59,143 nucleotides of DNA. It comes from a virus. Taxonomy: Duplodnaviria; Caudoviricetes. Of the stretch, positions 1-17,907 are shown in pieces. The translations under genes were made by a program, and so were the position numbers. The notes under the pieces are model-generated. The model saw only the letters and a program-made list of their open reading frames with translations. It made no database searches and was not told where the DNA came from. Position 1 is the first letter of the stretch, and every line of letters starts with the position of its first letter. The stretch covers positions 1 to 59,143 of IMG/VR virus record IMGVR_UViG_3300016659_000208, one strand, 5' to 3'.

Positions 1-364
1 TAATAAATTCTTCCCCTAATAAAACAGGAGTATCATTTTCAGTTCTATCTGCTAGGCTAAAGGGTACAGCGTTAAACTGCTCTTTACCAAGACTACAGTC
101 CAACTTAACAACCGGTCTGTCTTCTTTATTACCGCTACCTATATGGATAAAAACCCTATCTGCAATTGGTAAGGTTAATCTCTTTTTGTTTACTGTTGTA
201 AAGGTAACCTTGCTATCATTTTCCTTTAGATCGACCCCATGTAAGACATTATAAGCGCTATTACCAGTATCAACTTTGGCCTTTACAGTTCCAACATGTT
301 GAATAGTAATGCCTTCCGTTAGACCGAGTATTTGCTCATAAAAAAATTGTTTAAATGAAACCAT
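1..364 (-). CDS. Retropepsin-like protease (RimK-associated 'ATP-dependent Zn protease' family), 3'-truncated by the window edge; not in the ORF track
   Basis: Manual translation from ATG at 364: MVSFKQFFYEQILGLTEGITIQHVGTVKAKVDTGNSAYNVLHG...EDRPVVKLD...FSLADRTENDTPVLLGEEFI. Has AKVDTG catalytic motif plus RPVV, L.DR and P.LLG motifs. Confidence 0.75.
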   Translation of the reverse strand, partial: MVSFKQFFYEQILGLTEGITIQHVGTVKAKVDTGNSAYNVLHGVDLKENDSKVTFTTVNKKRLTLPIADRVFIHIGSGNKEDRPVVKLDCSLGKEQFNAVPFSLADRTENDTPVLLGEEFI

Positions 365-371
365 AATATGA

Positions 372-389
372 TATTTATTATAATAAATA
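372..389. promoter_or_regulatory. Back-to-back late promoters forming a perfect 18-bp palindrome
   Basis: TATTTATTATAATAAATA. TAAATA lies 6 nt before ATG 396 (+) and 7 nt before ATG 364 (-). Confidence 0.7.
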
Positions 390-395
390 ATAATA

Positions 396-917
396 ATGAG
401 TGAAAAACAAGAGGTAGTCAATCTTATTGAAGCTTATAAAAAGATAGTTGTTAATGAGATTCAGAGTATTAGTCCCGGTGAAGGCAGATCAACATCACCA
501 GCACCACAGCACAAGGAAACCATTGCTATCAAGACTGAAGATGAAATTAATCCGGTTGATGCTTTGACCGAAAAAGATACAGAAGCGGATATGGCAAAGG
601 GAGAACTTTTTAAACTAAACAAAGATTCAAAAGAACTTTACAATCTTATTTCTTCTTGTGAGAATCTTGAACCTTGGGTATTCAGTAAAATTACAGTAGC
701 TGCTAGTTATATTCAAGGTGTTAAAAATTATCTGGAATATGATAATTTTAAGAAAAAAGGTGAATTTAGTATAGACAGAAATGATCATGATAATATGATG
801 TCGTTAAAAGTAAAAGAAATGTTACAGGGTGAAAGTAGAGAGGTGTTAGAATCTGTTATCAGACAAGCAATTTTCAATTTAGAGGCGCTTCAAACAATAG
901 AAGAAACTAAGGCGTAA
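396..917 (+). CDS. Hypothetical protein, probably virion-associated
   Basis: 173 aa with late box. N-terminal LIEAYKKIVVNE; helical motif MAKGEL...LEPWVFSKITVAASYI. Confidence 0.6.
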   Translation: MSEKQEVVNLIEAYKKIVVNEIQSISPGEGRSTSPAPQHKETIAIKTEDEINPVDALTEKDTEADMAKGELFKLNKDSKELYNLISSCENLEPWVFSKITVAASYIQGVKNYLEYDNFKKKGEFSIDRNDHDNMMSLKVKEMLQGESREVLESVIRQAIFNLEALQTIEETKA

Positions 918-2232
918 TTTTTCTTGGTCCGCCAAACTGTCTGTTAATCTTGGTAAATTCAAGTCTATCAACTAATTTCACATGATTGGTACCGACAAAC
1001 AAAACAAATCCCTCGTCTTTGGTAGGGGTATATGAGCCATCAGGATTTTCTATAAACGTTTTACCGACTTTGGATTCAAGAGCAGTTAATGCTTGAAGTA
1101 AAAGATTTTTTGACCTTGACATATGATAGGTTGCAATAATAAGGTTAGTAAAATTTTCTTTATTTTTCTCTAAAAAAGAAAGAATTTGATTGGATCTCTC
1201 TTCAACTTTCTTTTTTCCTAAAGAAGTTTTTTTTGTTTCTTGTTCTTTGAGATATCGAGCAGCAATAAATTTTCTTAAACCGTCAATAAAACTATCAGTA
1301 ACAAATTCTTCACCTCTCTGTGAAGCCCCAAATATTCCCTGCGGTGCAATGTCTACTTGCTTATTAAGATATATCTTTAATAATGCTAGAACAGGGCTAG
1401 CAAGGTATGTGGCGTTAAAATCATCCTCAATATTATCAATATGTAATTTTGCTTTATTTACCTCTGCATTAATCTGCTTTAACAACGAATCGGAAATATT
1501 TACAGCAAGCTTTCCAAAATTACTACTTTGAATAAATGCAGTAGTATTATGACTTTTTTCAACTAAACTAGAAACATCTCTACCTTGCGAAACAAGTTCA
1601 ATTCCCTCTGTCTTTGTTGGTTTTCCTTTAAAAGATTCATGAACTATAATGCCGACTTGCGCGTTTTGAATTTTCTGTGATAAAGAACTTTTCTGATCTA
1701 TTGGTACTGCATAAACAATAACATTAGGTTTAAAAGTAATAAACTCTTCTTCACCTATTTTAATTCTTTTCTTATCTTTTGGTAATGCAAACAAAACATC
1801 TGCCTGATATATTTTTCCAGAATTATCATATGCAATCTTTAAGTTTAAAAGTAAGCTTTTTAATTTGTCTCTTAAATCCGGTTTTTGACCATATAGAACA
1901 TCTATATCTTTATCAGTATGCATAATTTTTGGAGCTGTCTGGCTCAGTCCTCCCTTTAGTGATATAAAGAATTGATTTTTAAATTGTGGTCTAGGATCAG
2001 TTCCAAACAAAATCATTGGACTTCCATCTATTTTTGCATTCATTTCTTGATTAGTTTCAAACCCTTTAATTTTCTTGTTAATTTCATCCATATGTTGTAA
2101 GAAATTATTAAATCCATTTTTACCATTTTCTATAGCTAAATCTTCAATGTGTGATAAATGAGTTTTCATATGAGCATCACTTTCTATTAAAACTATCTGC
2201 TCGTTTTTTAAAAATTGTACAAATGAGTTCAT
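907..2232 (-). CDS. DUF6267-like protein with ligase/covalent nucleotidyltransferase motifs
   Basis: HLSHIED, KIDGSP (motif I KxDG), YQADVLF, FKPNVIVY, GIIVH, DEGFV (motif IV), VKLVDRLEF (motif V). Confidence 0.65.
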   Translation of the reverse strand: MNSFVQFLKNEQIVLIESDAHMKTHLSHIEDLAIENGKNGFNNFLQHMDEINKKIKGFETNQEMNAKIDGSPMILFGTDPRPQFKNQFFISLKGGLSQTAPKIMHTDKDIDVLYGQKPDLRDKLKSLLLNLKIAYDNSGKIYQADVLFALPKDKKRIKIGEEEFITFKPNVIVYAVPIDQKSSLSQKIQNAQVGIIVHESFKGKPTKTEGIELVSQGRDVSSLVEKSHNTTAFIQSSNFGKLAVNISDSLLKQINAEVNKAKLHIDNIEDDFNATYLASPVLALLKIYLNKQVDIAPQGIFGASQRGEEFVTDSFIDGLRKFIAARYLKEQETKKTSLGKKKVEERSNQILSFLEKNKENFTNLIIATYHMSRSKNLLLQALTALESKVGKTFIENPDGSYTPTKDEGFVLFVGTNHVKLVDRLEFTKINRQFGGPRKITP

Positions 2233-2858
2233 TTGACTAGCTGTTTGTAGATCTTAACCATATCTTCTTTAGATATAGGCGGTAACATATTTTTAAAACT
2301 ATTGTAATCTTTCTTATCAAGGGCTTGTCTTGCCTCAGTTGCAGAGGCGAGCCTGGAGACTTCTTTTTGATTAATATCTTTAACTTTTTTACCTTTAAAG
2401 ATGGAAATGTTATTCGTCTTAAAAAAGGAACCATATCTACCTTGTGCATCCTCACTGCTAGCGTATAAGTTTATTACATAAGATTCATTATTTTTGATAA
2501 TAGATATTATTTCTTGAGCTTGTGGATGCGGGGTGGGCGATCTCGGTGTAGGCGTAAATTTACCATTGTTTAAAATATCTACAATATGATATACAACCAA
2601 TACTGGTGAACCAGACACTAAAATAAAATGAATATTTTTTGGTAAATAGGGTTTGTATGTATTCCAGACTTTAAGAGAGTCTTGTGATGTAATATTGTCT
2701 CTATCTACAGCTGATATCAAAACAAAAACAATATTGTTTTCTTGAGCTGCTCTTTTAACTGTGTCAAAATGTCCTTTATGCGGAGGCTTGAATGCACCTG
2801 GGAATACACCTATAGTAGTTTCTATAGATTCGGTTAAAAACTGTCTAAACGTTTTCAT
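2229..2858 (-). CDS. HxGH (cytidylyltransferase/NMNAT-like) nucleotidyltransferase
   Basis: GVFPGAFKPPHKGH near the N-terminus; C-terminal ASATEAR motif. Confidence 0.8.
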   Translation of the reverse strand: MKTFRQFLTESIETTIGVFPGAFKPPHKGHFDTVKRAAQENNIVFVLISAVDRDNITSQDSLKVWNTYKPYLPKNIHFILVSGSPVLVVYHIVDILNNGKFTPTPRSPTPHPQAQEIISIIKNNESYVINLYASSEDAQGRYGSFFKTNNISIFKGKKVKDINQKEVSRLASATEARQALDKKDYNSFKNMLPPISKEDMVKIYKQLVK

Positions 2859-4036
2859 TAAAGATTCTTCAACGGTTCCTTTAAACCTATCTTAGGAGCC
2901 CCGGCACTAATTTGATTTGCATAAATAAATTCGCCTAATCTTTCTTTTGGAATATATAAAAATGCATCAGAATTAACTATAAAAAGACCAGTTTCAGGAA
3001 AAGTATTAAAAATAACGTTTGTTAACGCAGTACGTATTTCTTCCAGTCCTTGAACTAAATTTAAGCTTCTTATAGTCTGTTTAAACGAATCTTGATTAGT
3101 ACATTTTTTAAACAGTCTACATTGCTTTTGTGTAATAGATCTATCTATATTTCTTGCCTCTTTTTCAAAAAAATCTTTTTCTTGTTGGTCATCTGCATTT
3201 ATTTTATAATTTTTCAATATTGTATCGTACAAATCTTTTATATTGGCGTTAGTTCCCCCGGGTACAGTTGCTGTAATAATATCATTTAGTACGTCGGTAA
3301 ACTGTTTTAACGAGAAAATTAATGCAGGTCTTTGTTTATAATGACCCAACGCTAGTTTATCACTTAATAAAATTCCTTGAGACAACTCAACATTAGATTT
3401 ACTGAGAATAGTATGTATGTATTTATCTATTGTCCAGCCCTCAAGGCGGTCTTGATATTGAGACCCAACAGCTCTTAGTGTAAGAGGGTTTTTTATTATT
3501 GCATCATTAATAGCGGCTTTGCCGCTATCATCCATAGAATCATATGCCCTTAACACTTCTTCTAAAAAACCATTTACAGCGTTTATTACTTGTGTTGCTG
3601 CTTGCTTACCATTAGTACCTGTGCGCACTGTCTTTGTTTTTTTACCTTCCTTATCAGTAACAATTTTAATTTCCTTAACCTCATAATGACTACCATCAGG
3701 AGCTAAAACGTCAAAACTAACCCCGGATCCTTGAATAATATTAAACGAATGTCTTTTAAATTCCGCAGCTCTTTGTTTCTCTAACTGCTTGAGAGCATCG
3801 TAAGAACTTACACCCCAAAGTATACAAGCAAGACTATATTCACCCCTGCCTACCCCGCCGTCTATTGTATTAAAAAGTTCTATTGGATTTTTAAGATTAA
3901 ATTCTGTCCATTTGTACTTTCTGCCAGGCTCAAATGCATTGGCTTGTTCCAGTAAAACTTGCTGTCTTGGTAGAGGTGGTACAGTTCTGAACATAACCTG
4001 TTCTGCATATAGACAGTTTAAACTCTTGTAATACAC
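2858..4036 (-). CDS. Putative PD-(D/E)xK nuclease-fold protein
   Basis: GRGE helix followed by FDV-x7-YEVKE; GTG start 4 nt after a late box. Confidence 0.45.
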   Translation of the reverse strand: MYYKSLNCLYAEQVMFRTVPPLPRQQVLLEQANAFEPGRKYKWTEFNLKNPIELFNTIDGGVGRGEYSLACILWGVSSYDALKQLEKQRAAEFKRHSFNIIQGSGVSFDVLAPDGSHYEVKEIKIVTDKEGKKTKTVRTGTNGKQAATQVINAVNGFLEEVLRAYDSMDDSGKAAINDAIIKNPLTLRAVGSQYQDRLEGWTIDKYIHTILSKSNVELSQGILLSDKLALGHYKQRPALIFSLKQFTDVLNDIITATVPGGTNANIKDLYDTILKNYKINADDQQEKDFFEKEARNIDRSITQKQCRLFKKCTNQDSFKQTIRSLNLVQGLEEIRTALTNVIFNTFPETGLFIVNSDAFLYIPKERLGEFIYANQISAGAPKIGLKEPLKNL

Positions 4037-5334: not shown

Positions 5335-5363
5335 ATTATAGGTGCTTTAACTATGCTTTTCAA
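5335..5363 (-). promoter_or_regulatory. Sigma70-type promoter (leaderless)
   Basis: TTGAAA-N17-TATAAT-N6-ATG(5328). Confidence 0.65.
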
Positions 5364-5769
5364 TAAAATTTCTTGGAGGTTCTCCTATACGTACGTTTAA
5401 AATACCGTTGTAAAAGTCCTCTCTTAAAATTACATCTTTTTCTATTTGCTCTTTTATTTCTCTGTATCCAAGCTCCCACTTTGAATCACAAAAATGTAAA
5501 ATTATAAATTCAAAATTATTCTTACCATACTTTTCTATGTCCGCATTTAATTCTGTTGATGAACCTGTGTACATTTTCCAGTCTGTCTGCTTTAATTCTA
5601 TTCTTCTATTTTTTTTGCCTTTAAGAGGAGGACGCTTGAGAGTAGTTATACATTGTTTCTTTCCAATATACTTTTTATCAGTTATTAAATTACGTATTTG
5701 ATATATAAACCCAAATGCATTTTCTTTTAATTCAATATTTTTAGCTAGTTGCCAATGACCTAAATCCAT
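5347..5769 (-). CDS. GIY-YIG endonuclease, T4 EndoII (DenA)-like
   Basis: FGFIYQI...KKYIGKK, W..Y.GSS, E..EQ, FYNG; single 140 aa domain. Confidence 0.8.
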   Translation of the reverse strand: MDLGHWQLAKNIELKENAFGFIYQIRNLITDKKYIGKKQCITTLKRPPLKGKKNRRIELKQTDWKMYTGSSTELNADIEKYGKNNFEFIILHFCDSKWELGYREIKEQIEKDVILREDFYNGILNVRIGEPPRNFIEKHS

Positions 5770-6017: not shown

Positions 6018-6413
6018 ATGGAACAACTTAGCTCATACATCAAGGAGCTAGAAGATGATGTGCGCATTGATGAGCTAAATCTCAAGGAGGCCGCGCTAAT
6101 GCTGCCAGCACGTAAGGCGAAATGGGTTTCTCGTTTAATTATAGAAAAAAATAATTTAAATGAGCTTTTTAAGAAAAAAAATAAAATTATTAATGATGTT
6201 GTAGAGACTCTCAAAAAAGAATCCGCGGTTAGATTAGCTACCCCTACGCTAGAGAAAGCTGCAGAAAGACACGCTGCGGTTGCAGAAATAACAACCGAGA
6301 TAAATCAAAAGCAAAATGTAATTGATTTTTTAGAGAGAGTTGAAAAAACAATACATAGCATTGGGTTTGATATAAAAAACTTAATTGAAGTTATTAAAAT
6401 GGAGACCTCATAG
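6018..6413 (+). CDS. uvsY: Recombination mediator UvsY-like
   Basis: 131 aa helical; D..IDE..L, P...KW, C-terminal GFDIKN.IE; adjacent to uvsW. Confidence 0.7.
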   Translation: MEQLSSYIKELEDDVRIDELNLKEAALMLPARKAKWVSRLIIEKNNLNELFKKKNKIINDVVETLKKESAVRLATPTLEKAAERHAAVAEITTEINQKQNVIDFLERVEKTIHSIGFDIKNLIEVIKMETS

Positions 6414-7891
6414 TGGTTTATTTCGATTTAGATAAGACAGGAAAGTACGGTTATATTACCGGTGATCATATTAATGATATAAGAGAGTTTTTTTCTGTAA
6501 AGAATGATGGTGCTCGGTTTGCGAGAATGAAGGGAAGGTTTATACCTTCACGTACATACGCAATAACACCAGGCGGTAGATTAGATCCTTGCTTGTTCTT
6601 TGAAGTGACAAAATTTTTATTGCAAAATAATTACTGTAATCAAGAAGATATTAAAGCTTCAAATACCTTTATAAGTTCAATTCTCCCTGCACAAGCCACC
6701 TATCATAAAAATGTTTCTTATACTAGAGAGCCATACAACAATCTTACTCTTCAATTAAGAGATTATCAAAAGGCTATTGTAACAAAATGCTTAGAGACTG
6801 GCAGAGGGGTAGTGGTTCTAGCTACTGCAGGCGGTAAAACATTAATTATGGCTTCTTTACTATCAAACTTTTTTTATCTTAAGAATAATTTTAAATGTTT
6901 GCTAGTTGTACCGGATCTTGGATTGGCTGAACAGACATACGCGGATTTTATTAGTTACGGTGTACCCTTTTCTTCAAGAAAATGGACAGGCAGTAACCCG
7001 CTTGAATCTAATAAGCCTGATGCATCTAATGTAATTATTGCAAATCTTGGTATTTTACAGTCTGAGAACTCAGATTTAACATGGCTCAAAGGTATAGATT
7101 TAATTATTGTTGATGAAGTACATAAAGTGAGACGTGGCAATAAGGTAAATAATATTCTTAAAAACATAAATACCAATTTAAGATTTGGGTTTACTGGAAC
7201 AATGCCTGAAGATAAGCTAGATCAATGGAATATTATAGGTAAGATAGGTCCTATAATATATGAAAAAAACAGCTTTCAATTACGTACAGAAAAGTTTATT
7301 TCTAAAGTCAGCGCAAATATACTAGAGATTATATACAACAAAACTCCGCTCGAAATTAAAGAACTTGTAAATCCAGCAGAAAAATATAGAAAAGAATTAG
7401 AATTTTTATTTACAAATACTTTTAGAAACAATGCATTAGCGGCTGTATGTAATAACGCCCCGAATAATGTGCTTATACTAATCGATTACATTAAACATGG
7501 TGAAGAGCTGTATAACTATCTAACAAAAGTTTGTAATAGAAAAGCTGTTTTCTTTATAAGAGGTGAGGTTGGAGTAACGGACAGAGAAAAAATAAAAGAA
7601 TTAATGGAAAAAAGCAATAATGTTGTTTGTATAGCTATAAGTAAAATATTTAGTACAGGGGTAAATATTAAGAACTTACATTTCATAGTTTTTGCTGGTG
7701 GAGGCAAAGCCAAGATCAAGACAATACAAAGTATTGGCAGAGGTCTTAGATTACACGAAAATAAAGATAAGCTTTATATCATTGACATAGCGGATCAGTT
7801 AACTTATGGTAAAAGACATCAGCTAAAGAGGCAATCTATTTATGAGCAAGAACGGATTCCTTTTACTATAAAAAAAATTACAGAAAAATAA
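6413..7891 (+). CDS. uvsW: SF2 helicase UvsW
   Basis: LRDYQ, TAGGKT, DEVH, GFTGT, STGVNI, QSIGRGLR. Confidence 0.9.
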   Translation: MVYFDLDKTGKYGYITGDHINDIREFFSVKNDGARFARMKGRFIPSRTYAITPGGRLDPCLFFEVTKFLLQNNYCNQEDIKASNTFISSILPAQATYHKNVSYTREPYNNLTLQLRDYQKAIVTKCLETGRGVVVLATAGGKTLIMASLLSNFFYLKNNFKCLLVVPDLGLAEQTYADFISYGVPFSSRKWTGSNPLESNKPDASNVIIANLGILQSENSDLTWLKGIDLIIVDEVHKVRRGNKVNNILKNINTNLRFGFTGTMPEDKLDQWNIIGKIGPIIYEKNSFQLRTEKFISKVSANILEIIYNKTPLEIKELVNPAEKYRKELEFLFTNTFRNNALAAVCNNAPNNVLILIDYIKHGEELYNYLTKVCNRKAVFFIRGEVGVTDREKIKELMEKSNNVVCIAISKIFSTGVNIKNLHFIVFAGGGKAKIKTIQSIGRGLRLHENKDKLYIIDIADQLTYGKRHQLKRQSIYEQERIPFTIKKITEK

Positions 7892-7893
7892 TT

Positions 7894-8490
7894 ATGAAAA
7901 AAAATAAAAAACAACTTAAGCAAAAGGAAGTAATAGATGCAGAGCTTCCGCCAGAACTAACGGATATTAAATCTGTTATAAGTACCATTACAGATGAAGT
8001 AACCCCTGTTACTTCTGGAAAAAGCGGAAAAAAGCTCAAGCCTTCGGAAAAACCACATTATGTTAGCAGTAAAGAATTTGAAGAAGAGTTAGCGTTGTAT
8101 TACAAAACTGACAAGATGACAGGATATTTAGCCGAGGCTATTAGAAGAATAGCCTACGGGTTATCTTTTGCGCCAAATTTTATAAATTATTCGTACAGAG
8201 ATGAGATGATAGGCGATGCAGTTGTAAAAATGTATCAAGCACTAAAATACAAAAAATTTAAGTTAAATCAAGGATTTAGTCCTTTTAGCTATTTTACTAC
8301 CATAGCATTTCATGCATTTATAAGTAGAATTAAAAAAGAAAAGAAACATCATCAATTAGTCGCGGATTATAGAGAAAGAAACTATGATAGTCTTATTAAT
8401 AAAGATGAGAATGATACAGGCATAAGGGTTTGTACTTCTGATAATTCTGGAGGACTAGATAATAGTTTCTATAATGAGAGTAATGCCTAG
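7894..8490 (+). CDS. gp55: Late-transcription sigma factor gp55
   Basis: HYVSSKEF, NFINYSYRDEMIGDA, PFSYFTTIAFHAFISRIKKEKK; upstream of gp47/46 as in T4. Confidence 0.9.
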   Translation: MKKNKKQLKQKEVIDAELPPELTDIKSVISTITDEVTPVTSGKSGKKLKPSEKPHYVSSKEFEEELALYYKTDKMTGYLAEAIRRIAYGLSFAPNFINYSYRDEMIGDAVVKMYQALKYKKFKLNQGFSPFSYFTTIAFHAFISRIKKEKKHHQLVADYRERNYDSLINKDENDTGIRVCTSDNSGGLDNSFYNESNA

Positions 8491-9523
8491 TTCGCGAGTT
8501 GCTATATTTTCAGATTTACATCTTGGTGTTCATATGAACAGTCAGGCCTGGCATGATATATCATTGCAATGGGCTAAATGGATTACTGACGAATTAAAAG
8601 CCAAAGACATTAATGAGATAGTGTTTTGCGGAGACTTTTTTCATAGTAGAAGTGAAATAACAGTAAATACACTACATCACGCAAGTATATTGCTTGAATA
8701 TTTTAAAGACTTTAAAATATATATGTTGGCCGGTAATCACGATTCATTTTATAAAAATAATTGCAGTGTTAACAGTATACGTATTTTTAACGGGCGAGAT
8801 AATATAATCATAGTAGATAAGCCTTCATTAATCCAGATTGGTGGTAAAGAATGTTTTTTTGCCCCATGGGGTACGGAGATTGAAAGACTTCAAGAAAGTG
8901 ATGTTATGTTCGGGCATTTTGAAATTGAGTCATTTAAAATGAATAGCTTTAAGCTTTGTGAGGGTGGTTTTAAATCACAAGATTTATTAAAATATTCACC
9001 TTTAGTTATATCAGGCCACTTTCATCTAAGAGAAGAAAGACGTTATGAAAAAGGTACTATTCTATATGTAGGTTGTCCGTTTGAGTTAGATTTCGGTGAC
9101 GAAGGGTCAGTAAAGGGGTATTATATTCTCGATATGAAAGACCCTTCGTACGAGTTTTTCCCTAATGATTTTTCACCTAGACATATAAAAATTAATTTAT
9201 CAGACTTAGTGAAAGTACATAATTTTGTAGAGGCCGGACAAGTGATTTTAAGGAACAATATAGTTAAAATTAGTATAGACAAGAATGTTTCCACGCAAGA
9301 TTTAGATAAATTAACGTTAAAACTTCATAATTATAAACCGCTTAATCTCGTTATTGATAGCAGCGCTAGTAATACAGCATTTGGAGCGGATTTAGAGCAA
9401 AGTATTGATTTAAGCGGGGTAGATATTACAAAGGCTATATCTGACTTTGTTGGGCTGCTTGATATAGAAAATAAAAAGGATGTTATTGAATACACAGTTT
9501 CACTATACAATCAATGTAAATGA
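8483..9523 (+). CDS. gp47: Recombination nuclease gp47 (Mre11/SbcD-like)
   Basis: DLHLG, GDFFH, GNHD, GHFH. Start at 8483 or 8474. Confidence 0.9.
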   Translation: MPSSRVAIFSDLHLGVHMNSQAWHDISLQWAKWITDELKAKDINEIVFCGDFFHSRSEITVNTLHHASILLEYFKDFKIYMLAGNHDSFYKNNCSVNSIRIFNGRDNIIIVDKPSLIQIGGKECFFAPWGTEIERLQESDVMFGHFEIESFKMNSFKLCEGGFKSQDLLKYSPLVISGHFHLREERRYEKGTILYVGCPFELDFGDEGSVKGYYILDMKDPSYEFFPNDFSPRHIKINLSDLVKVHNFVEAGQVILRNNIVKISIDKNVSTQDLDKLTLKLHNYKPLNLVIDSSASNTAFGADLEQSIDLSGVDITKAISDFVGLLDIENKKDVIEYTVSLYNQCK

Positions 9524-11322
9524 AGAAAATAATTTTTAATACTCTTACGATAAAACACTTTTTAAGTGTAGGTGAAAAACCAGTAAAAATTAATTTTAAA
9601 CCAGGTTTACACGGTATTACAGGCATCAATAGGGATCAACTAGATAGAAGAAACGGTGTTGGAAAAAGCACAATCCCTGACGCTCTTCATTTTGCTTTAT
9701 TTGGTACAACTATAAGAGAGTTAAAAAAAGAATTTATTATTAATAATATAACAGGAAAAACATGTGAAGTGTCCCTTACTTTTAGTGTAATTAAAGGTAA
9801 AGAAAAACAAAATTACGAAATAGTGCGCACTCTCGAGCCAAGTAAATGCATGTTATATCTAAACGACAGGGATATTACTAGAGATAGTATTGCTAATACC
9901 ACGGAATATGTATGTGACATAATTCAATGTACGCCCGAAATTTTTCAAAATTGCGTTGTCATGACAGCGAACAATACAATACCATTCATGGCAAAAAAGA
10001 AAATGGAAAAACGTAAATTTATTGAAGGTATTTTTAATTTAGAAATTTTTAGTAAAATGCTTTTGCAACTACGTGATGAATACAACGATGTCAAAAAAAA
10101 CTTAGATGTAGAAAATGTTCGTCAAGAGGAGGCTAATACTACAGTTAATGCTTTAACACAACAGAAAGAGAAATCACACCGTGAATATGAGAATAGAAAG
10201 CAACTACTTAATAATCGTAAGACAAATTGTGTTGATGAATTAAAAGTTATTGAAAAGAGAATTAATAACTACATTCTCATAAATGAAGAAGATATTAATA
10301 AGAATTTATTGATTTTAAATGATAAATTACAAGAATGTGATTTTAAAATACAGGACATTAGTAAGCATATTGCCTCTTTTGAGACAAAGAACGAAATGGT
10401 TGTTGCCGCACTAGCTAAAGTAGGTACGAATAAAGATACATGCCCTGTGTGCTTAAGACCTGTGAATGAATCTGATAAACAACATATTCACAATACACAG
10501 GAAAATTATAAAAACGAAATTAACAATCACGAAGCTCAAATAAAGCGATATGAATTAAAGCTTAATGAATTAAATTCCTTAAAAGGCAAAGTTGTTGAAG
10601 CTATTAAAAAGGGCCAGCATAGCATCAACAAAAGTCATCTCAATAAACAGCAGTTTGAAAATGATACCAAGCGTAAAACTCAACTACTACTGCTCACAGA
10701 AGAGATAGATCAGGATATATCTCATCTTAGTGACTCCAGCACGAATATGGACAAACTTATTCTCGAAGCTGAAAATAAACTAAAAGATATTAAGGATAAG
10801 ATAGAAAGTATTCGACGTATTATCAATTTATTAGAGACAGTTAAATTTATAGTTAGTGAGGAGGGTGTAAAGAGCTTTATTGTGAAGAAAATACTAGCAC
10901 TTTTTAATAATAAAATTGCCACATACTTAAGCAGGTTAAACTCAAACGCTAAAATTACATTTAATGAATACTTTGAAGAACTAATAATAAATGATAAAGG
11001 TAAAGAGGCAACTTACTTTAATTTTAGTGGCGCAGAAAGAAAAGTTATTGATTTAGCAATAATGTTTAGCTTTATTGATATGCTTAGCTTACAAGGTAAT
11101 ATTTTCTATAATATTCAGTTCTATGATGAGTTACTAGACACGAGTCTCGATGAAACAGGTGTAGAGCTTGTATTGAAATTGCTGGCTGAATTTGTTGAAA
11201 AAAATAAATTTGGTGTTTATATAATTTCACATAGAAAAGAATGTGCACGATTGGTAAGTGGTGAAACCATTACATTGGAAAAAAGCAACGGCATTACAAC
11301 ATTAGGTGAAATTTTTAGTTGA
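9520..11322 (+). CDS. gp46: Recombination ATPase gp46 (Rad50/SbcC-like)
   Basis: NGVGKS Walker A, coiled coil with CPVC hook, FSGAE signature, YDE Walker B, ISH. Confidence 0.92.
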   Translation: MKKIIFNTLTIKHFLSVGEKPVKINFKPGLHGITGINRDQLDRRNGVGKSTIPDALHFALFGTTIRELKKEFIINNITGKTCEVSLTFSVIKGKEKQNYEIVRTLEPSKCMLYLNDRDITRDSIANTTEYVCDIIQCTPEIFQNCVVMTANNTIPFMAKKKMEKRKFIEGIFNLEIFSKMLLQLRDEYNDVKKNLDVENVRQEEANTTVNALTQQKEKSHREYENRKQLLNNRKTNCVDELKVIEKRINNYILINEEDINKNLLILNDKLQECDFKIQDISKHIASFETKNEMVVAALAKVGTNKDTCPVCLRPVNESDKQHIHNTQENYKNEINNHEAQIKRYELKLNELNSLKGKVVEAIKKGQHSINKSHLNKQQFENDTKRKTQLLLLTEEIDQDISHLSDSSTNMDKLILEAENKLKDIKDKIESIRRIINLLETVKFIVSEEGVKSFIVKKILALFNNKIATYLSRLNSNAKITFNEYFEELIINDKGKEATYFNFSGAERKVIDLAIMFSFIDMLSLQGNIFYNIQFYDELLDTSLDETGVELVLKLLAEFVEKNKFGVYIISHRKECARLVSGETITLEKSNGITTLGEIFS

Positions 11323-11346
11323 GATAAATTAAACAAGATATATATA
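11319..11346 (+). promoter_or_regulatory. Sigma70-type promoter (leaderless)
   Basis: TTGAGA-N16-TATATA-N6-ATG(11353). Confidence 0.55.
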
Positions 11347-11352
11347 TTTAAA

Positions 11353-12564
11353 ATGTTTACATCGAACCCGTTTACACCTCCTCTCTTACAACACGTCCAA
11401 ATTCCAGAACAACGTGCTATTATTCAACCCGACAACTCACAACCGCCTGAGGTAAATCTTCCTAGAGCAGTACAATATTACGCTGATTACTCGGGTTGTG
11501 GGTTTTGGCGTATGTTGTGGCCTGAACATCTTCTTAATGCATACGGTAATATGACTGTTCACGGTAGCACTGTTATGGTATTAGACCCTCGTTGGTATGT
11601 TAATGTGAAAGCTGTAAGAATACAACGACAAGCCACTTCTTCGCAATTACAGTTTGTTAAGTTTTTAAGGGATGTTTCTAAACAGGTAGGGTTTAGAATA
11701 ATTTATGAAATTGATGATGTAGTCTTTAGCGAGGATATTCCTGATTATAATAAATTTAAGACTGCTTTTGTTGATCCGGAGATCCGCAAAAATGCTCAGG
11801 AAATAATGTCTCTATGTGATGAAATAACAGTGACAAATGATTTTATGAAAGAGTATTATGCTGAAAAGACTGGGCATAAATACGTTACAGTTATACCAAA
11901 TTATCCACCTAAATTCTGGTTAGGTAATTTTTATGATGAGAAGGCAATTAGTGCTAATTATGATACATATAAAAATAAACCAAGGATTTTATATGCGGGG
12001 TCTGGTGCCCATTTTGATGTAGAGAATAGAGTAAATCAAAATGATGATTTTGCACACGTCGTTAGAGCTATATACAACACATATCATGTTTTTCAATGGG
12101 TATTTCTCGGTGCATATCCTTTACCAATTCGTCCGTTGATTGAAGCTGGTACCGTGGAGTTTCATCCATGGGTAAATCTTTATGGTTATGGTGAAAAGCT
12201 TAAAAATTTACGAGTTAATATGATAGTAGCGCCACTACAAGATAATAATTTTAACAAAAGCAAATCCGATTTGAAATGGATTGAGGCGAATTGTTTAGGG
12301 CTACCTATTGCATGCCAGGATTTGAGTACATATAAAGATGCTGAGTTTAAATTTAAAACTGGTGAAGAAATGGTTGATATAATCAAGGACGTCTTAAGTA
12401 AGAAAGGTCGCTATATGAATATATGTGCAGCTGCGAGAAAGAATGCTGATAAGAGATGGCTTGAAAATGAAGAAAATCTTGCTTGTTACAAGGAGCTTTT
12501 TACGCTACCGTACGGCAGTCCAGAGAGGGTACGACTTAACGAAATCAATAAAATTAAAGTTTAG
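11353..12564 (+). CDS. GT-B fold glycosyltransferase
   Basis: GCGFWR..WP, YEIDD, D.ITVT, VIPN, APL.DN.FN.SKS.LK..E...G.P. Confidence 0.75.
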   Translation: MFTSNPFTPPLLQHVQIPEQRAIIQPDNSQPPEVNLPRAVQYYADYSGCGFWRMLWPEHLLNAYGNMTVHGSTVMVLDPRWYVNVKAVRIQRQATSSQLQFVKFLRDVSKQVGFRIIYEIDDVVFSEDIPDYNKFKTAFVDPEIRKNAQEIMSLCDEITVTNDFMKEYYAEKTGHKYVTVIPNYPPKFWLGNFYDEKAISANYDTYKNKPRILYAGSGAHFDVENRVNQNDDFAHVVRAIYNTYHVFQWVFLGAYPLPIRPLIEAGTVEFHPWVNLYGYGEKLKNLRVNMIVAPLQDNNFNKSKSDLKWIEANCLGLPIACQDLSTYKDAEFKFKTGEEMVDIIKDVLSKKGRYMNICAAARKNADKRWLENEENLACYKELFTLPYGSPERVRLNEINKIKV

Positions 12565-12880
12565 TAATTGTTTTAAAGACGTAGCAAATACTAGGATATA
12601 TAAGAAACGTTAGTATAGGTGTATATAAAGGAGCGTTACAAACAAAGACAAACACGGCCCCCGTTGCAAGAGAAAGCCAAAAACTCAAACATACCCAACA
12701 TGATAACAGTTTACTTAGCAATCTGTTCGTCATAAAAAGGTAATCGTCAAATTCGGTATGCATAATAAAGTTTTTCTTAAAAAATAGTTTACCTAGCGTT
12801 ATTTTTAACGGACTACCAAACCACAATAAAAGAATACTGCAGACAGCTAGCGCGCCTGCAAAAAAATCAATTATTTGCAT
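12554..12880 (-). CDS. Small membrane protein with CxxC (DUF1360-like)
   Basis: Three hydrophobic segments; LLSCWVCLSFW. Confidence 0.55.
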   Translation of the reverse strand: MQIIDFFAGALAVCSILLLWFGSPLKITLGKLFFKKNFIMHTEFDDYLFMTNRLLSKLLSCWVCLSFWLSLATGAVFVFVCNAPLYTPILTFLIYPSICYVFKTITKL

Positions 12881-13073
12881 TATTTTGCCCTATAATATTT
12901 TGTAAATTAATAATGTATGTTTGTCTAAAGTTTCTCTCAGCACATGTACCGCAGCCTCCCCGTTTCTTAACTTCCTCTAACTCGACAACATATTGATGTC
13001 TTAACGCCTCGCAGTTAGGAATTTTACCCGGGCAAGGTCTTGTAAAATCAAAAAATTGCATTATTTCATCCAT
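12867..13073 (-). CDS. Small Cys-rich protein
   Basis: 68 aa; CP..IPNC...GGCGTC; overlaps the downstream membrane gene. Confidence 0.55.
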   Translation of the reverse strand: MDEIMQFFDFTRPCPGKIPNCEALRHQYVVELEEVKKRGGCGTCAERNFRQTYIINLQNIIGQNNANN

Positions 13074-13087
13074 ATTATATTATATTA

Positions 13088-13115
13088 TTGCTTAATCTGA
13101 AAAATCAATTATAAT
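13088..13115 (+). promoter_or_regulatory. Sigma70-type promoter (leaderless)
   Basis: TTGCTT-N16-TATAAT-N6-ATG(13122). Confidence 0.7.
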
Positions 13116-13121
13116 AATCTA

Positions 13122-15710: not shown

Positions 15711-15713
15711 TAG

Positions 15714-15741
15714 TTGATTTTATTCTTATTGTATATATATT
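15714..15741 (+). promoter_or_regulatory. Sigma70-type promoter (leaderless)
   Basis: TTGATT-N16-TATATT-N6-ATG(15748). Confidence 0.6.
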
Positions 15742-15747
15742 AATTAT

Positions 15748-16098
15748 ATGAACGAAATAATTCTATTTGTAAATCATGTAGGTCAAACACTCTTAGCTGA
15801 AAAGATTGAAGATACAGCGCAACATCTTAAGGTCAAAAACCCCGCGATATTACATGTAACGCCTAATCAAAACTCTCAATTACAGGTTCAACTTATTCCT
15901 TATTTCTTTAGGGAATTTATTGATCAAGCTTCTCGTAAGAATGGCGCTGTATTTACTTTCGGTAAGGATAAGATAGTTGCAGCTGATATTAATTTAGAGG
16001 CTAAGCTTATTGATCAATATAATCGTATTTTTTCTGATGCCCCAGCAGCACAAAGTACAGGTAAAGAGCCGTCTGTTGTCAAGTTGTTCGAAGAATGA
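15748..16098 (+). CDS. Hypothetical beta-rich protein (possibly Sm-like)
   Basis: 116 aa; G..LLA, V.NP, L.PY pattern. Confidence 0.45.
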   Translation: MNEIILFVNHVGQTLLAEKIEDTAQHLKVKNPAILHVTPNQNSQLQVQLIPYFFREFIDQASRKNGAVFTFGKDKIVAADINLEAKLIDQYNRIFSDAPAAQSTGKEPSVVKLFEE

Positions 16099-17177
16099 AG
16101 CAAGACGAGCTCCTGTCAAAGGCGTTTAAGTCATTAGACGCTCTTAACCCAGAAGCAACATTTTTATCAGAAAATGCTTTATGCAATGTTGATACATGGT
16201 ATGACACTGGCTGTTTTGCATTAAATGCAATTATATCTGGTAGGCTTGTTGGTGGCGGTATCCCTAAGGGACGTATTACTATATTTGCCGGGCCTTCACA
16301 AACAGGTAAAACTTTACTTGTTAACAAAATCTTAGGATTAGCACAAAAAAAAGGCATTATTCCAGTTATTTTCGATACAGAATTTGCTATTGACAAAACG
16401 ACTACTGCAGGTATTGGTCTGGATCCAGATAAAACTAAATACGTTCCTGTCTATACAATTGAAAATGCTCGCAATCAAATTAGTACTTTTTTAGATAGTA
16501 TTGTCGAAAATAATTTGCAAGGAAAATTCATAATTAGTTTGGATAGCTTGGGAAATCTTGCAGGCAGTAAAGAGGTAACCGATGTCGAGAAAGATAAAAG
16601 CGCTGCAGATATGGGTACAAGAGCTAAAGGGTTAAAAAGCATGTTAAGGCTTTTAACTTACAAGGCCGGTCGCGCAGGGGTTCCTATTCTAATGACTAAT
16701 CATACTTATAGTGACCCGGCCTCTCTTTATCCCTCTCTAGTTCAGAATCAAAGTGGCGGGAGTGGACCGCTATATATGGCTAGTGTAATTGTTCAGCTAG
16801 CTAAGAGAAATGAAAAACAGGAAAATGAGGATGAAGCTATTTTACCAGAAGCTAAAAACTATAACGGAGTAACGTTAAGAGCTTTGACTGTTAAAAATAG
16901 GTTTGTACCTCCGTTTCTGGAGGCAAGTATTAATTTAAATTATTTAACTGGTCTCGACAAATATAGTGGGTTGCTTGAGATGGCTGTTAACCATGGTTTG
17001 ATAATTCAAACCGGTTCTACTTACACCAAACCAGACGGAACCAAGCTAGGATATGCAAAGAACTTTACAAAAGATAAAAAGTTCTATGAGGAGTTAATTC
17101 CTCTCTTAGATAAAAAGCTGGAAACCGCGTACAAGTATGGAAATGTATCTGGTGAGGATGTAAATGAAAAAACCTAA
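16095..17177 (+). CDS. uvsX: RecA-like recombinase UvsX
   Basis: DTG..ALN..ISG, GPSQTGKT, DTE, LDSLG, NH.Y, KNRF. Confidence 0.92.
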   Translation: MKQDELLSKAFKSLDALNPEATFLSENALCNVDTWYDTGCFALNAIISGRLVGGGIPKGRITIFAGPSQTGKTLLVNKILGLAQKKGIIPVIFDTEFAIDKTTTAGIGLDPDKTKYVPVYTIENARNQISTFLDSIVENNLQGKFIISLDSLGNLAGSKEVTDVEKDKSAADMGTRAKGLKSMLRLLTYKAGRAGVPILMTNHTYSDPASLYPSLVQNQSGGSGPLYMASVIVQLAKRNEKQENEDEAILPEAKNYNGVTLRALTVKNRFVPPFLEASINLNYLTGLDKYSGLLEMAVNHGLIIQTGSTYTKPDGTKLGYAKNFTKDKKFYEELIPLLDKKLETAYKYGNVSGEDVNEKT

Positions 17178-17907
17178 AATAATTGTACCTATTTCTGGCG
17201 GTATGGACAGTACTGTCATTTTATATAAGGCTGTAGAAAAGTTTGGTGCGCAAAACGTTTTTGGCTTATCTTATGATTATGGTCAACGGCATAAAAGAGA
17301 ATTAAAATTAGCTGAATATCATGTTAAAAAACTTAATATTAATAAATGGCAAATTATTGATACGAAGTTTATTAAAGCTCTAGCACCTACTAGTAGCCTG
17401 ACAAATGATAATATTGATACACCTGACATTAGACAGATTGCGGGAGAGGCTCAACCAAAATCTTATGTTCCCAACAGAAATATGATTTTTTTAAGTATTG
17501 CGGCATCTTATGCTGAAGCTTTGGGCGCAGATATAGTTTATCACGGAGCCACAAAAATTGATAGTTTAGCCGGTTACTGGGACGCTAGCCTAGAATTTTT
17601 GCCGATGATTAATAATGTTTTATCACTGAATAGAGAAACTCGCATTGTTATAGAAGCCCCTTTAATTAAAATGGATAAAGCAGATATAGTAAAAGAAGGT
17701 ATTAGATTAAGGGTAAAATTTAGTAAAACATATACTTGTTACTCTGGTAAAAATTTATGTGATCCTAACTCTCCTAGCAGTGCATTACGCATAAAAGGTT
17801 TTGCTAAAGCCGGTTATATTGATCCTATACGCTACAGTGAAGACCTATCTCACATATGGGAGAAATATAATTGTAGATTAATTGATTATGATACTTATAA
17901 TATCTAA
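17164..17907 (+). CDS. queC: QueC-like PP-loop ATPase (divergent, Zn site degenerate)
   Basis: SGGMDS, YGQRH, YVPNRNMIF, PL....K, TCY. Confidence 0.8.
   Translation: MKKPKIIVPISGGMDSTVILYKAVEKFGAQNVFGLSYDYGQRHKRELKLAEYHVKKLNINKWQIIDTKFIKALAPTSSLTNDNIDTPDIRQIAGEAQPKSYVPNRNMIFLSIAASYAEALGADIVYHGATKIDSLAGYWDASLEFLPMINNVLSLNRETRIVIEAPLIKMDKADIVKEGIRLRVKFSKTYTCYSGKNLCDPNSPSSALRIKGFAKAGYIDPIRYSEDLSHIWEKYNCRLIDYDTYNI

What the first reader, a model, noticed from the sequence alone, without database searches (positions are those of the whole stretch)
907..2232. DUF6267-like protein carries ligase-superfamily catalytic motifs
KIDG, YQAD, EGFV and VKL occur in the order of motifs I, III, IV and V of ATP-dependent RNA/DNA ligases and capping enzymes. 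A long helical insert lies between motifs III and IV, and no OB domain is evident. This suggests an RNA-ligase-like or protein/RNA-adenylating enzyme with an unknown substrate.
Basis: partly seen in the sequence, partly recalled or inferred. Interest (0 to 1): 0.7.

Follow-up and report, generated by a model that had tools for sequence, protein, structure and literature searches.

The report
Ligase-like enzyme paired with nucleotidyltransferase
A conserved gene of unknown function in marine T4-like phages carries the catalytic signature of RNA/DNA ligases and always travels with, or is fused to, a second nucleotide-transferring enzyme, so it may be an unrecognised ligase family, but its fold match to known ligases is only weak.

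Summary
Window 907-2232 (-) encodes a 441-aa DUF6267 protein (Pfam E 9.9e-60). KIDG, YQAD, EGFV and VKL lie at residues 67, 142, 407 and 418. In 86 diverse homologues K67, D69, G70, E407, G408 and K419 are invariant, and Q143/D145 nearly so. A confident AlphaFold model (pLDDT 94) puts every motif on a beta-strand or loop as in ligases. It shows a helical insert at 248-382 and no OB domain.

Homology to ligases is not proven. Foldseek gave no hit at E<=0.001 outside the family and all TM-scores were below 0.3, although RNA ligases dominate the sub-threshold hits. HHalign and HMMER aligned only motifs IV-V, without significance.

New here: the gene is translationally coupled to a HIGH-motif cytidylyltransferase-like gene. 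The two lie close together in 7 of 7 phage genomes examined and are fused in at least 15 of 44 long homologues.

Best reading, confidence about 0.5: a divergent lysine-nucleotidyltransferase acting on polynucleotide ends together with that partner. Substrate unknown. New variant of a known kind.

The parts
907..2232 (-). DUF6267 gene, 441 aa; candidate lysine-nucleotidyltransferase (ligase-like)
   Evidence: ORF. Pfam PF19782 E 9.9e-60. 1338 homologous clusters at E<=1e-3. AF2 model pLDDT 94.1, pTM 0.90.
2140..2160 (-). N-terminal conserved H25-x-x-H28-x-E30-D31 motif at the start of a long helix (29-55)
   Evidence: H25 84 of 86, H28 85 of 86, E30 79 of 86, D31 75 of 86. Role unknown.
2023..2034 (-). 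KIDG, residues 67-70: motif I-like; K67 is the candidate nucleotidylated lysine
   Evidence: K67, D69 and G70 are 86 of 86 and P72 is 84 of 86. The motif sits in the loop between strands 62-66 and 73-79.
1954..1971 (-). FF-V-x-T/S-K93: motif Ia-like segment
   Evidence: F88 81, F89 79 and K93 85 of 86. It follows strand 87-92. The motif Ia label is recalled, not tested.
1798..1809 (-). YQAD, residues 142-145: motif III-like (family consensus QGD)
   Evidence: Q143 81 of 86 and D145 84 of 86. On strand 140-148.
1711..1734 (-). F167-x-P-N-x-I-x-Y174: motif IIIa-like aromatic strand pair
   Evidence: F167 80, P169 83, N170 80 and Y174 86 of 86. Strands 162-167 and 172-177.
1087..1491 (-). All-helical insert, residues 248-382, holding near-invariant N290 and K375
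   Evidence: DSSP of the model. N290 82 and K375 85 of 86.
1003..1014 (-). EGFV, residues 407-410: motif IV-like
   Evidence: E407 and G408 86 of 86, V410 81 of 86. Leads into strand 409-413. hhalign pairs it with T4 Rnl1 EGYV.
973..981 (-). VKL, residues 418-420: motif V-like with a single lysine, followed by conserved V-D-R-x-x-F-S-x-x-N
   Evidence: K419 86 of 86, R423 84, F426 86 and N430 85 of 86. Strand 416-420.
2229..2858 (-). Partner gene: 209-aa HIGH-motif (cytidylyltransferase-like) nucleotidyltransferase. Its stop overlaps the DUF6267 start in ATGA.
   Evidence: Pfam CTP_transf_like E 1.4e-4, 22.5 bits against cut-off 21. NCBIfam TIGR00125 E 5.7e-8. PHROG cytidyltransferase/NMNAT families. 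Invariant P25 P26 H27 G29 H30 ... S172 R177 in 43 homologues. Overlap read. Homologous to domains fused to DUF6267 in 16 of 150 representatives.
2858..4036 (-). Upstream 392-aa gene of the same operon: possible PD-(D/E)xK nuclease-like protein (D109 ... E119-V-K121, window 3674-3712). Its stop overlaps the partner's start (TAATG).
   Evidence: Motif read from the translation. The four nearest Pfam-named Atlas clusters are restriction endonuclease families, scores 0.83-0.84, which makes this a lead only. No Pfam or PHROG hit. Overlap read.

Best explanation
The 441-aa DUF6267 protein is a highly divergent, OB-less member of the covalent (lysine) nucleotidyltransferase superfamily, the group that holds ATP/NAD-dependent ligases and capping enzymes. 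Its layout is closest to Rnl1-type RNA ligases: a beta-rich nucleotide-binding core plus an all-helical module. Proposed mechanism (inferred, not shown): K67 attacks the alpha-phosphate of a nucleotide cofactor to form a Lys-NMP intermediate. D69, D145 and E407 hold ribose and metal, and K419, K93 and R423 hold the phosphates. The NMP then passes to a 5'-phosphate polynucleotide end that is sealed or left adenylylated. The enzyme works as a unit with the HIGH-motif nucleotidyltransferase encoded immediately upstream, and probably with the nuclease-like 392-aa protein before that. Together they form a conserved nucleic-acid end-processing module of T4-like phages of marine cyanobacteria, SAR11 and methylophiles. 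Shown: motif invariance, predicted topology, and genetic coupling and fusion with the partner. Inferred: the fold assignment, the covalent intermediate and the polynucleotide substrate.
For: (1) Six of the nine invariant columns in 86 diverse homologues are the ligase motif I, IV and V residues: K67, D69, G70, E407, G408, K419. The III-, Ia- and IIIa-like positions are at least 80 of 86. (2) The AF2 model (pLDDT 94.1, pTM 0.90) places motif I in a strand-loop-strand, III and IIIa on strands, and IV-V as a hairpin 12 residues apart. (3) Foldseek against PDB, full model: rank 1 of 350,542 chains is T4 Rnl1 (E 0.02), and the highest probability row is TbREL1 (0.38). Fragment 21-245: the four highest probabilities among the listed rows are TbREL1 0.33, fungal tRNA ligase 0.30, 7lsy_Y 0.21 (a chain of an NHEJ synaptic complex; I take it to be DNA ligase IV from memory, unchecked) and T4 Rnl2 0.18. 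(4) BFVD: below the family's own members, 10 of the 28 rows ranked 23-50 are named RNA ligases or PNK/ligase, with E 0.004-0.08 and probabilities up to 0.77. (5) hhalign aligns EGFV...VKL to the T4 Rnl1 stretch 223-242, which from memory holds E227/G228 and K240 (P 0.004 for the C-terminal piece). (6) Partner link. There are 4-nt and 1-nt gene overlaps. A cytidylyltransferase-like gene is fused, adjacent or within three genes in 7 of 7 annotated phage genomes examined. It is also adjacent in the one IMG/VR relative whose ORFs were listed (L049), of four found. Pfam CTP_transf_like is present in 15 of 44 long homologues, on either side of DUF6267. (7) In HTVC008M the module also holds a Zeta/AAA_33 P-loop kinase (E 3e-13). 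Polynucleotide kinases are the usual companions of phage RNA ligases (PMC7824862, passages seen).
Against: No comparison with a known ligase is significant. Foldseek gave 0 PDB hits at E<=0.001 for the full model or the fragment, and every ligase row has TM<=0.30 and rmsd>=10 A. Neither phmmer nor a profile of A1 against PDB sequences found any ligase. Pfam ligase families matched 1 of 86 members, weakly (RNA_lig_T4_1, E 0.0037). hhalign probabilities were 1.4-7.9% against Rnl1 and below 1% against Rnl2, and motifs I and III did not align. The DUF6267 HMM against 120 Rnl1 sequences scored no better than reversed controls, 5.0 against 5.0 bits. The Rnl1 and Rnl2 alignments were narrow (at least 43% identity), so sensitivity was limited. 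Motif III has Asp rather than Glu, and motif V has one lysine. No known ligase has the helical module inserted before motif IV. No precedent was found for a HIGH-family nucleotidyltransferase working with a ligase (searches found none).
Confidence: 0.5

Rival explanations
1. It is the missing replicative DNA ligase of marine T4-like phages. DUF6267, with its partner, would seal Okazaki-fragment nicks in phages that have no gp30 homologue.
For: A review states that homologues of g30 (DNA ligase) are not found in cyanomyoviruses and that distant homologues may exist unrecognised (PMC2984593, 'Replication and Repair' passage). 0 of 5 complete DUF6267-bearing phage genomes (S-PM2, HTVC008M, P-HM1, Melnitz, S-CAM9) match PF01068, PF01653, PF09414 or PF09511. 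The searches detect PF09511 and PF09414 in T4 and PF01068 in DLP6. S-SZBM1 also lacks PF01068 and PF01653. T4, which has gp30, lacks DUF6267. The gene sits next to gp41, UvsX, MazG or the gp43 block in all contexts seen.
Against: Stenotrophomonas phage DLP6 has both a strong DUF6267 gene (E 1.4e-119) and a PF01068 DNA ligase (PMC5349666 passages). DUF6267 has no OB domain or motif VI, which all known DNA ligases carry (recalled). The structural neighbours are RNA ligases, not DNA ligases. The same review considers use of the host ligase more probable.
Confidence: 0.13
2. It is an NAD+-linked system. The partner would be an NMNAT-type adenylyltransferase that makes or recycles NAD+ (or another dinucleotide) on site. 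DUF6267 would use that as its AMP donor, as LigA does, or run the reverse reaction to rebuild NAD+ during host NAD+ depletion.
For: The partner's weak sub-family matches include NMNAT models: PHROG 3462 at E 2.5e-6 and several NCBIfam NMNAT models at 5.8e-5 and weaker. A cyanophage paper calls the cyanophage cytidyltransferase 'a homolog of NMNAT' (PMC10665884 passage). Fusion of the two domains in either order suggests substrate channelling. A conserved N-terminal H-x-x-H-x-E-D helix precedes motif I. NAD+ ligases carry their NMN-binding Ia domain in the same place (recalled).
Against: All NMNAT matches cover only the generic HxGH N-terminus, at scores far below the family cut-offs. PPAT and citrate-lyase-ligase models match equally well. 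There is no sequence similarity to the LigA Ia or adenylation domains: PF01653 did not match in any of the 8 DUF6267-bearing records searched. The idea rests on analogy.
Confidence: 0.12
3. It is not a ligase-superfamily protein at all. On this reading it is an enzyme of a different or new fold whose conserved K-x-D-G, E-G and K residues resemble ligase motifs by convergence, and it acts on a small molecule with the HIGH-family partner.
For: Every structural and profile comparison with ligases is below significance. TM-scores of 0.1-0.3 are in the range of unrelated folds. HIGH-family enzymes normally act on small phosphorylated metabolites (recalled).
Against: Four motifs fall in the canonical order, each on the expected secondary-structure element, and take six of the nine invariant positions. 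Ligases are over-represented among the sub-threshold structural hits in three separate searches. That is hard to get by chance from a library where they are rare.
Confidence: 0.22
4. It is mainly a virion-assembly or injected accessory protein. The precedent is the second, non-catalytic role of T4 Rnl1/gp63 in tail-fibre attachment.
For: The neighbouring cytidylyltransferase and the next downstream protein were detected in purified S-SZBM1 virions (S-SZBM1_140 and _139; PMC9146016 table passages; gene order). A cytidylyltransferase and two downstream proteins were detected in S-CREM2 virions (PMC10665884, Table 3 read). The module borders virion or tail-fibre genes in cyanophages and DLP6. T4 rnlA is annotated as RNA ligase and tail-fibre attachment catalyst.
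Against: The DUF6267 protein itself (S-SZBM1_141) does not occur in the main text of that paper (0 occurrences); supplements could not be seen. Invariant charged residues in a ligase-like pattern argue for catalysis.
Confidence: 0.05

Closest known systems
T4 RNA ligase 1 (Rnl1/gp63; Pfam RNA_lig_T4_1 PF09511 plus C-terminal helical domain PF20819)
   Same: OB-less. A beta-rich nucleotide-binding part plus an all-helical module. Top PDB Foldseek hit of the full model. Motif IV-V segment aligned by hhalign, EGFV..VKL to EGYV..FKIK, with 12- against 13-residue spacing. Both are T4-like phage genes.
   Different: No significant sequence or structure score. The helical module lies before motifs IV-V instead of after V. 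Motif III has Asp, not Glu. Motif V has one lysine. There is an N-terminal HxxHxED motif. There is an obligate HIGH-nucleotidyltransferase partner. T4 itself lacks DUF6267, and DUF6267 phages lack PF09511.
Rnl2/REL1-type RNA ligases (Pfam RNA_ligase PF09414)
   Same: Highest Foldseek probabilities: TbREL1 0.38 and 0.33; Fadolivirus REL/Rnl2 0.63. A language-model feature hit to a cluster where 48% of members carry PF09414, score 0.75, which is a lead only.
   Different: hhalign against a T4 Rnl2 alignment found nothing. TM-scores of 0.30 or less.
NAD+-dependent DNA ligase LigA (recalled features)
   Same: A single lysine in motif V and a conserved helical element N-terminal to motif I. The partner could supply NAD+.
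   Different: No PF01653 match. No OB, Zn-finger, HhH or BRCT domains. The similarities are recalled analogies and were not tested.
HIGH-motif nucleotidyltransferases (CTP_transf_like PF01467: NMNAT, PPAT, glycerol-3-P cytidylyltransferase, citrate lyase ligase) - for the partner gene
   Same: The P-x-H-x-G-H motif and a C-terminal S-x-T-x-x-R motif are invariant in 43 homologues. Pfam, NCBIfam and PHROG hits.
   Different: Only the N-terminal 35-45 residues match the curated models, so no sub-family can be assigned. Not known to partner with ligases.

Membership tests
Pfam DUF6267 (PF19782) | Match to the family HMM above the gathering score | tested here: met
   203.3 bits against cut-off 27, E 9.9e-60, near full length. 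86 of 86 aligned homologues also match.
Covalent nucleotidyltransferase superfamily (ligases/capping enzymes) | Motif I KxDG with the nucleotidylated lysine in a strand-loop-strand | tested here: met
   K67, D69 and G70 are 86 of 86. Located between strands 62-66 and 73-79.
Covalent nucleotidyltransferase superfamily (ligases/capping enzymes) | Motif III acidic residue on a strand (usually Glu) | tested here: inconclusive
   D145 is 84 of 86, with E in 2, on strand 140-148. Asp instead of the usual Glu. It was not aligned to ligase motif III by any tool.
Covalent nucleotidyltransferase superfamily (ligases/capping enzymes) | Motif IV (E/D)G-h-h and motif V lysine(s) as a beta-hairpin | tested here: met
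   E407, G408 and K419 are 86 of 86. Strands 409-413 and 416-420. Aligned to Rnl1 motifs IV-V by hhalign. Only one lysine in motif V.
Covalent nucleotidyltransferase superfamily (ligases/capping enzymes) | Nucleotidyltransferase fold shown by significant structural similarity | tested here: inconclusive
   0 PDB hits at E<=0.001. The best ligase rows have E 0.02-0.4, probability 0.12-0.38 and TM<=0.30. In BFVD, RNA ligases have E 0.004-0.08 and probability up to 0.77. Ligases are enriched among the hits but below threshold.
Covalent nucleotidyltransferase superfamily (ligases/capping enzymes) | Detectable profile-level sequence homology to a member family | tested here: not met
   hhalign probability is 7.9% or less. 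The A1 profile against PDB found no ligase. Pfam ligase models matched 1 of 86 members at E 0.0037. The reciprocal HMM search equalled the reversed control. The reference alignments were narrow.
Covalent nucleotidyltransferase superfamily (ligases/capping enzymes) | Formation of a covalent Lys-NMP intermediate | not testable with these tools
   Needs labelling with alpha-32P nucleotides and a K67 mutant.
ATP-dependent DNA ligases / mRNA capping enzymes | C-terminal OB domain with motif VI | tested here: not met
   Only one helix (423-433) follows motif V and the protein ends at 441. No PF01068 signal.
HIGH-motif nucleotidyltransferases (partner gene 2229-2858) | (H/T)xGH motif at the end of the first strand, and a Pfam/NCBIfam match | tested here: met
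   PPHKGH at residues 25-30, invariant in 43 sequences. PF01467 22.5 bits against cut-off 21. TIGR00125 32.8 bits against 27.7.
NMNAT sub-family (partner gene) | Score above the equivalog cut-offs for NMN/NaMN adenylyltransferases | tested here: not met
   The best NMNAT model scored 22.5 bits against a cut-off of 341. All matches cover only residues of about 14-59.

The most novel reading that the evidence does not exclude
DUF6267 and its fused or adjacent HIGH-family nucleotidyltransferase form a previously unrecognised two-enzyme ligase. It would be the long-missing nick-sealing activity of marine T4-like phages (cyanomyoviruses, pelagimyoviruses, Melnitz-type phages). The partner would synthesise or recycle the adenylyl donor (NAD+-like) on site, making phage DNA or RNA joining independent of the host NAD+ pool that defence systems deplete.
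Probability: 0.1. Interest if true: 0.85.

Novelty: new variant of a known kind. Interest (0 to 1): 0.6.

Why it matters
DUF6267 corresponds to the gene labelled 'T4-LIKE GC: 71' in the cyanophage records. It is found in 132 phage records, most of them cyanomyoviruses plus SAR11 and methylophile phages, and in 1338 protein clusters at 50% identity. These phages are among the most abundant viruses in the ocean, and reviews note that no DNA ligase has been found in them (PMC2984593 passage). If the family is a real lysine-nucleotidyltransferase, it adds a new architecture to the ligase superfamily: a helical module inserted before motifs IV-V, no OB domain, and an obligate HIGH-nucleotidyltransferase partner. 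It would also give a testable candidate for nucleic-acid joining or repair in these phages, and a possible new enzyme tool. No paper containing 'DUF6267' was found. No paper linking RNA ligase with cytidylyltransferase in phages was found either.

Tried and rejected
(1) Sequence searches against PDB with the protein and with the A1 profile found no ligase.

(2) hhalign of A1, whole and in N-terminal, helical and C-terminal blocks, against a 30-sequence Rnl1 alignment and a 17-sequence Rnl2 alignment. Only motifs IV-V aligned, and without significance. Two of 18 selected IMG/VR Rnl2 loci were dropped for internal stops.

(3) Idea that the helical insert is homologous to the Rnl1 C-terminal domain. 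An Rnl1 HMM hit the insert of several homologues at 11.4, 10.9 and 8.6 bits, against a maximum of 4.7 for reversed and 2.9 for shuffled sequences. The profile-profile score was 14.2 against 13.2 and 11.2 for the reversed controls, and the reciprocal search was negative. I keep it as an unexplained weak lead, not a finding.

(4) Complex prediction of DUF6267 with the 209-aa partner returned 'no answer'. It counts neither way.

(5) Folding the fragment 21-245 alone, to remove helical decoys, did not improve the ligase matches.

(6) Strict complementarity with gp30 is rejected, because DLP6 has both genes.

(7) Promoter, terminator and TATAAATA scans were uninformative in this AT-rich DNA: 35 promoter-like sites against 27.9 expected, and 13 TATAAATA against 16.8 expected.

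(8) The 'longer' homologue search added only 4 fused forms.

(9) The upstream 392-aa protein shows no BLAST similarity to the upstream genes of P-HM1 or HTVC008M.

Full report
WHAT IS THERE. Window 907-2232 on the minus strand is an ATG-started ORF of 441 aa. It matches Pfam DUF6267 almost end to end (E 9.9e-60, 203 bits) and PHROG 455, 'unknown function'. The window is an IMG/VR virus record estimated 28% complete. It belongs to a T4-like myovirus: gp43-type DNA polymerase, UvsX, DnaB/gp41-like helicase, SbcC/gp46-like nuclease, large terminase and tail sheath all match PHROGs at E 1e-55 to 1e-190. The gene is the last of a tight minus-strand operon. The 392-aa gene (2858-4036) ends in TAATG with the start of a 209-aa gene (2229-2858), and that gene ends in ATGA with the DUF6267 start.

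THE OBSERVATION. KIDG, YQAD, EGFV and VKL occur once each, at residues 67, 142, 407 and 418. An ordered pattern built from them after the fact appears in 2 of 20,000 shuffles of the protein, and in 1 of 44 long six-frame ORFs of the window, the target itself. Conservation says more. An exhaustive phmmer search found 1338 clusters at E<=1e-3. I aligned 86 stand-alone-length sequences, the query plus 85 taken from the 150 best listed representatives (A1, 25-58% identity to the query). In that alignment nine columns are invariant, and six of them are K67, D69, G70, E407, G408 and K419. Counts per position: D145 84 of 86, Q143 81, K93 85, F167 80, P169 83, N170 80, Y174 86, H198 84, N290 82, K375 85, R423 84, F426 86. 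An N-terminal H25-x-x-H28-x-E30-D31 motif is 84, 85, 79 and 75 of 86.

FOLD. AlphaFold2 with A1 gave a confident model (mean pLDDT 94.1, pTM 0.90). K67 lies in the loop between strands 62-66 and 73-79. Q143/D145 lie on strand 140-148, and F167..Y174 on strands 162-167 and 172-177. Helices fill 248-382. E407/G408 lead into strand 409-413, which pairs with strand 416-420 carrying K419. One helix (423-433) ends the protein. The helical insert and the lack of an OB domain are therefore confirmed. The placement of each motif is what the ligase nucleotidyltransferase domain would require; that requirement is recalled knowledge, not a tool result.

IS IT A LIGASE FOLD? Foldseek of the full model against PDB gave no hit at E<=0.001. 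Rank 1 was T4 Rnl1 (2c5u, E 0.02, probability 0.14). The highest probability in the list was TbREL1 (0.38), and two more Rnl1 entries appeared. TM-scores were 0.1-0.3. Against BFVD the first 22 rows are the family itself, several named 'Cytidyltransferase-like domain-containing protein'. Of the 28 rows ranked 23-50, ten are named RNA ligase or PNK/ligase. They come from an iridovirus, Tupanvirus, RM378, CcrBL9, ASFV, Catovirus, Acinetobacter phage 133 RnlA, Atu_ph07, Fadolivirus REL/Rnl2 and Edafosvirus, with E 0.004-0.08 and probability up to 0.77. To remove helical decoys I folded residues 21-245 alone (pLDDT 94.5) and searched PDB again. There was again no significant hit. The four highest probabilities were TbREL1 0.33, fungal tRNA ligase 0.30, chain 7lsy_Y of an NHEJ synaptic complex 0.21 (DNA ligase IV by my recollection, unchecked) and T4 Rnl2 0.18. 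T4 Rnl1 was at rank 5 and a capping enzyme was also listed. All TM-scores were 0.28 or less.

Sequence methods did not help. phmmer and the A1 profile against PDB found no ligase. Pfam at E<=1 found RNA_lig_T4_1 in 1 of 86 members (E 0.0037). hhalign against a 30-sequence Rnl1 alignment aligned only EGFV..VKL to Rnl1 223-242, at probability 1.4-7.9% and P 0.004 for the C-terminal block. Against Rnl2 it found nothing. The DUF6267 HMM against 120 Rnl1 proteins equalled the reversed control. My reference alignments were narrow (at least 43% identity), so these negatives are weak.

Net judgement: membership of the covalent nucleotidyltransferase superfamily is likely, about two in three. It rests on the motif pattern, the topology and a consistent enrichment of ligases among weak structural hits, not on any significant score.

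THE PARTNER. The 209-aa upstream gene is a HIGH-motif nucleotidyltransferase: Pfam CTP_transf_like at 22.5 bits against cut-off 21; NCBIfam TIGR00125 at E 5.7e-8; PHROG cytidyltransferase and NMNAT families. In 43 homologues PPH-x-GH, S172 and R177 are invariant. Only the first 35-45 residues or so match the curated models, so no sub-family (NMNAT, PPAT, GCT, CitC) can be assigned.

The link to DUF6267 is strong. In S-PM2 the two are one protein. In P-HM1, S-CAM9 and S-SZBM1 the transferase is the next gene. In Melnitz and DLP6 it is the second gene downstream, and in HTVC008M the third. That makes 7 of 7 annotated genomes examined. The S-SZBM1 assignment rests on the record's annotation only. 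The same 392-211-441 aa order is seen in the one IMG/VR relative whose ORFs I listed (L049); four relatives at 71-76% identity were found. Among the 44 long representatives (514-1559 aa), 15 carry Pfam CTP_transf_like, and it is the only recurrent extra domain. It lies N-terminal in some and C-terminal in others. The window's own 209-aa protein hits 16 of the 150 representatives outside their DUF6267 part.

The upstream gene of the module is also found fused. HTVC008M/Melnitz-type upstream proteins match P0133, and the P-HM1 type matches P0124. These upstream proteins fall into several unrelated-looking families. They share a D...(E/S)-x-K pattern: the window has D109...E119-V-K121, and the pattern is read from the sequences. 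The four nearest Pfam-named Atlas clusters for the window's protein are all restriction-endonuclease families (scores 0.83-0.84, leads only). HTVC008M adds a Zeta/AAA_33 P-loop kinase (E 3e-13).

DISTRIBUTION AND LIGASE CENSUS. tblastn found the family in 93 phage records at E<=1e-5 and 132 at E<=1e-3, all below 60% identity (35% or less in the rows listed). They are mostly Synechococcus and Prochlorococcus myophages, plus Pelagibacter HTVC008M, Methylophilales Melnitz, one Pseudoalteromonas phage and one Stenotrophomonas phage. The cyanophage records label it 'T4-LIKE GC: 71', beside gp41, UvsX and MazG. None of five complete genomes (S-PM2, HTVC008M, P-HM1, Melnitz, S-CAM9) matches PF01068, PF01653, PF09414 or PF09511. 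T4 serves as positive control for PF09511 and PF09414 and lacks DUF6267. S-SZBM1 and two partial records also lack PF01068 and PF01653. This fits the review statement that g30 homologues are not found in cyanomyoviruses (PMC2984593, passage read). But DLP6 has both DUF6267 (E 1.4e-119) and a PF01068 ligase (PMC5349666 passages). DUF6267 is therefore not simply a gp30 substitute.

VIRION DATA. [quoted passage not shown] The DUF6267 gene (_141) is not mentioned in the main text. In S-CREM2 a cytidylyltransferase and two downstream proteins were detected, and the authors call the enzyme an NMNAT homologue that may be injected (PMC10665884, Table 3 and passages read). I did not check whether S-CREM2 has DUF6267. 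The supplements of both papers were closed.

MECHANISM. Most likely (0.5): a divergent OB-less lysine-nucleotidyltransferase that forms K67-NMP and transfers it to a 5'-phosphate polynucleotide end. It would work as a unit with the HIGH-family transferase and probably with the nuclease-like protein. Rivals: the missing DNA ligase (0.13), an NAD+-coupled system (0.12), convergent motifs on another fold (0.22), and a mainly virion or assembly role (0.05). The first two are special cases of the best explanation, so the five confidences overlap and are not meant to add up to one. The role of the partner is the main open point. I found no precedent for a HIGH-family enzyme working with a ligase (searches; the jumbo-phage review names Pol-beta RlaP nucleotidyltransferases, kinases and phosphoesterases as ligase partners, passages read).

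VERDICT. This is a new variant of a known kind if the fold assignment holds. Interest 0.6.

Noticed in passing
window 5347-5769 (-): SegE-type GIY-YIG homing endonuclease (Pfam SegE_GIY-YIG E 1.1e-27) in the same minus-strand gene string, four genes upstream of the 392-aa gene.
   Followed up: no
window 6413-21533 and 31771-36654 (+): T4-like replication/recombination and morphogenesis genes: helicase, SbcC/gp46-like nuclease, glycosyltransferase (11353-12564), gp43-type polymerase, UvsX, DnaB/gp41-like helicase, large terminase, tail sheath. Two large ORFs (39068-41020, 41004-42476) have no PHROG match.
   Followed up: partly
L049 7586-8242 (-), 9904-10542 (+), 10543-11286 (-): In a 75%-identical relative contig, the DNA beyond the DUF6267 gene (lost off the window's left end) encodes GTP cyclohydrolase I, a PTPS/QueD-like enzyme and PhoH. 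The first two suggest 7-deazaguanine/queuosine precursor synthesis. A 418-aa protein between them has no Pfam match.
   Followed up: no
window 2-421 (-) and L049 6868-7272 (+): The truncated ORF at the window's left edge occupies the same position as a 134-aa ORF in L049 that matches Pfam Zn_protease (retropepsin-like, E 1.1e-9). The correspondence is judged by gene order and size only; the two were not aligned, and the window copy itself was not scanned.
   Followed up: no
L002 6712-7374 (HTVC008M), L002 7371-9161, L006 6583-8535: In HTVC008M a Zeta_toxin/AAA_33 P-loop kinase sits inside the module. The large downstream transferases of HTVC008M and Melnitz combine CTP_transf_like with DUF5824 (E 1e-18 and 2e-18).
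   Followed up: partly
DUF6267 residues 248-382 (window 1087-1491): An Rnl1 HMM weakly hits the helical insert of several homologues with its C-terminal helical domain: 11.4, 10.9 and 8.6 bits against 4.7 or less in reversed controls. Profile-profile and reciprocal tests do not support it. Unexplained.
   Followed up: yes
window 396-917 (+): A 173-aa ORF converges on the DUF6267 gene and overlaps its 3' end by 11 nt. It is conserved in position in L049 (172 aa). No Pfam or PHROG match.
   Followed up: no
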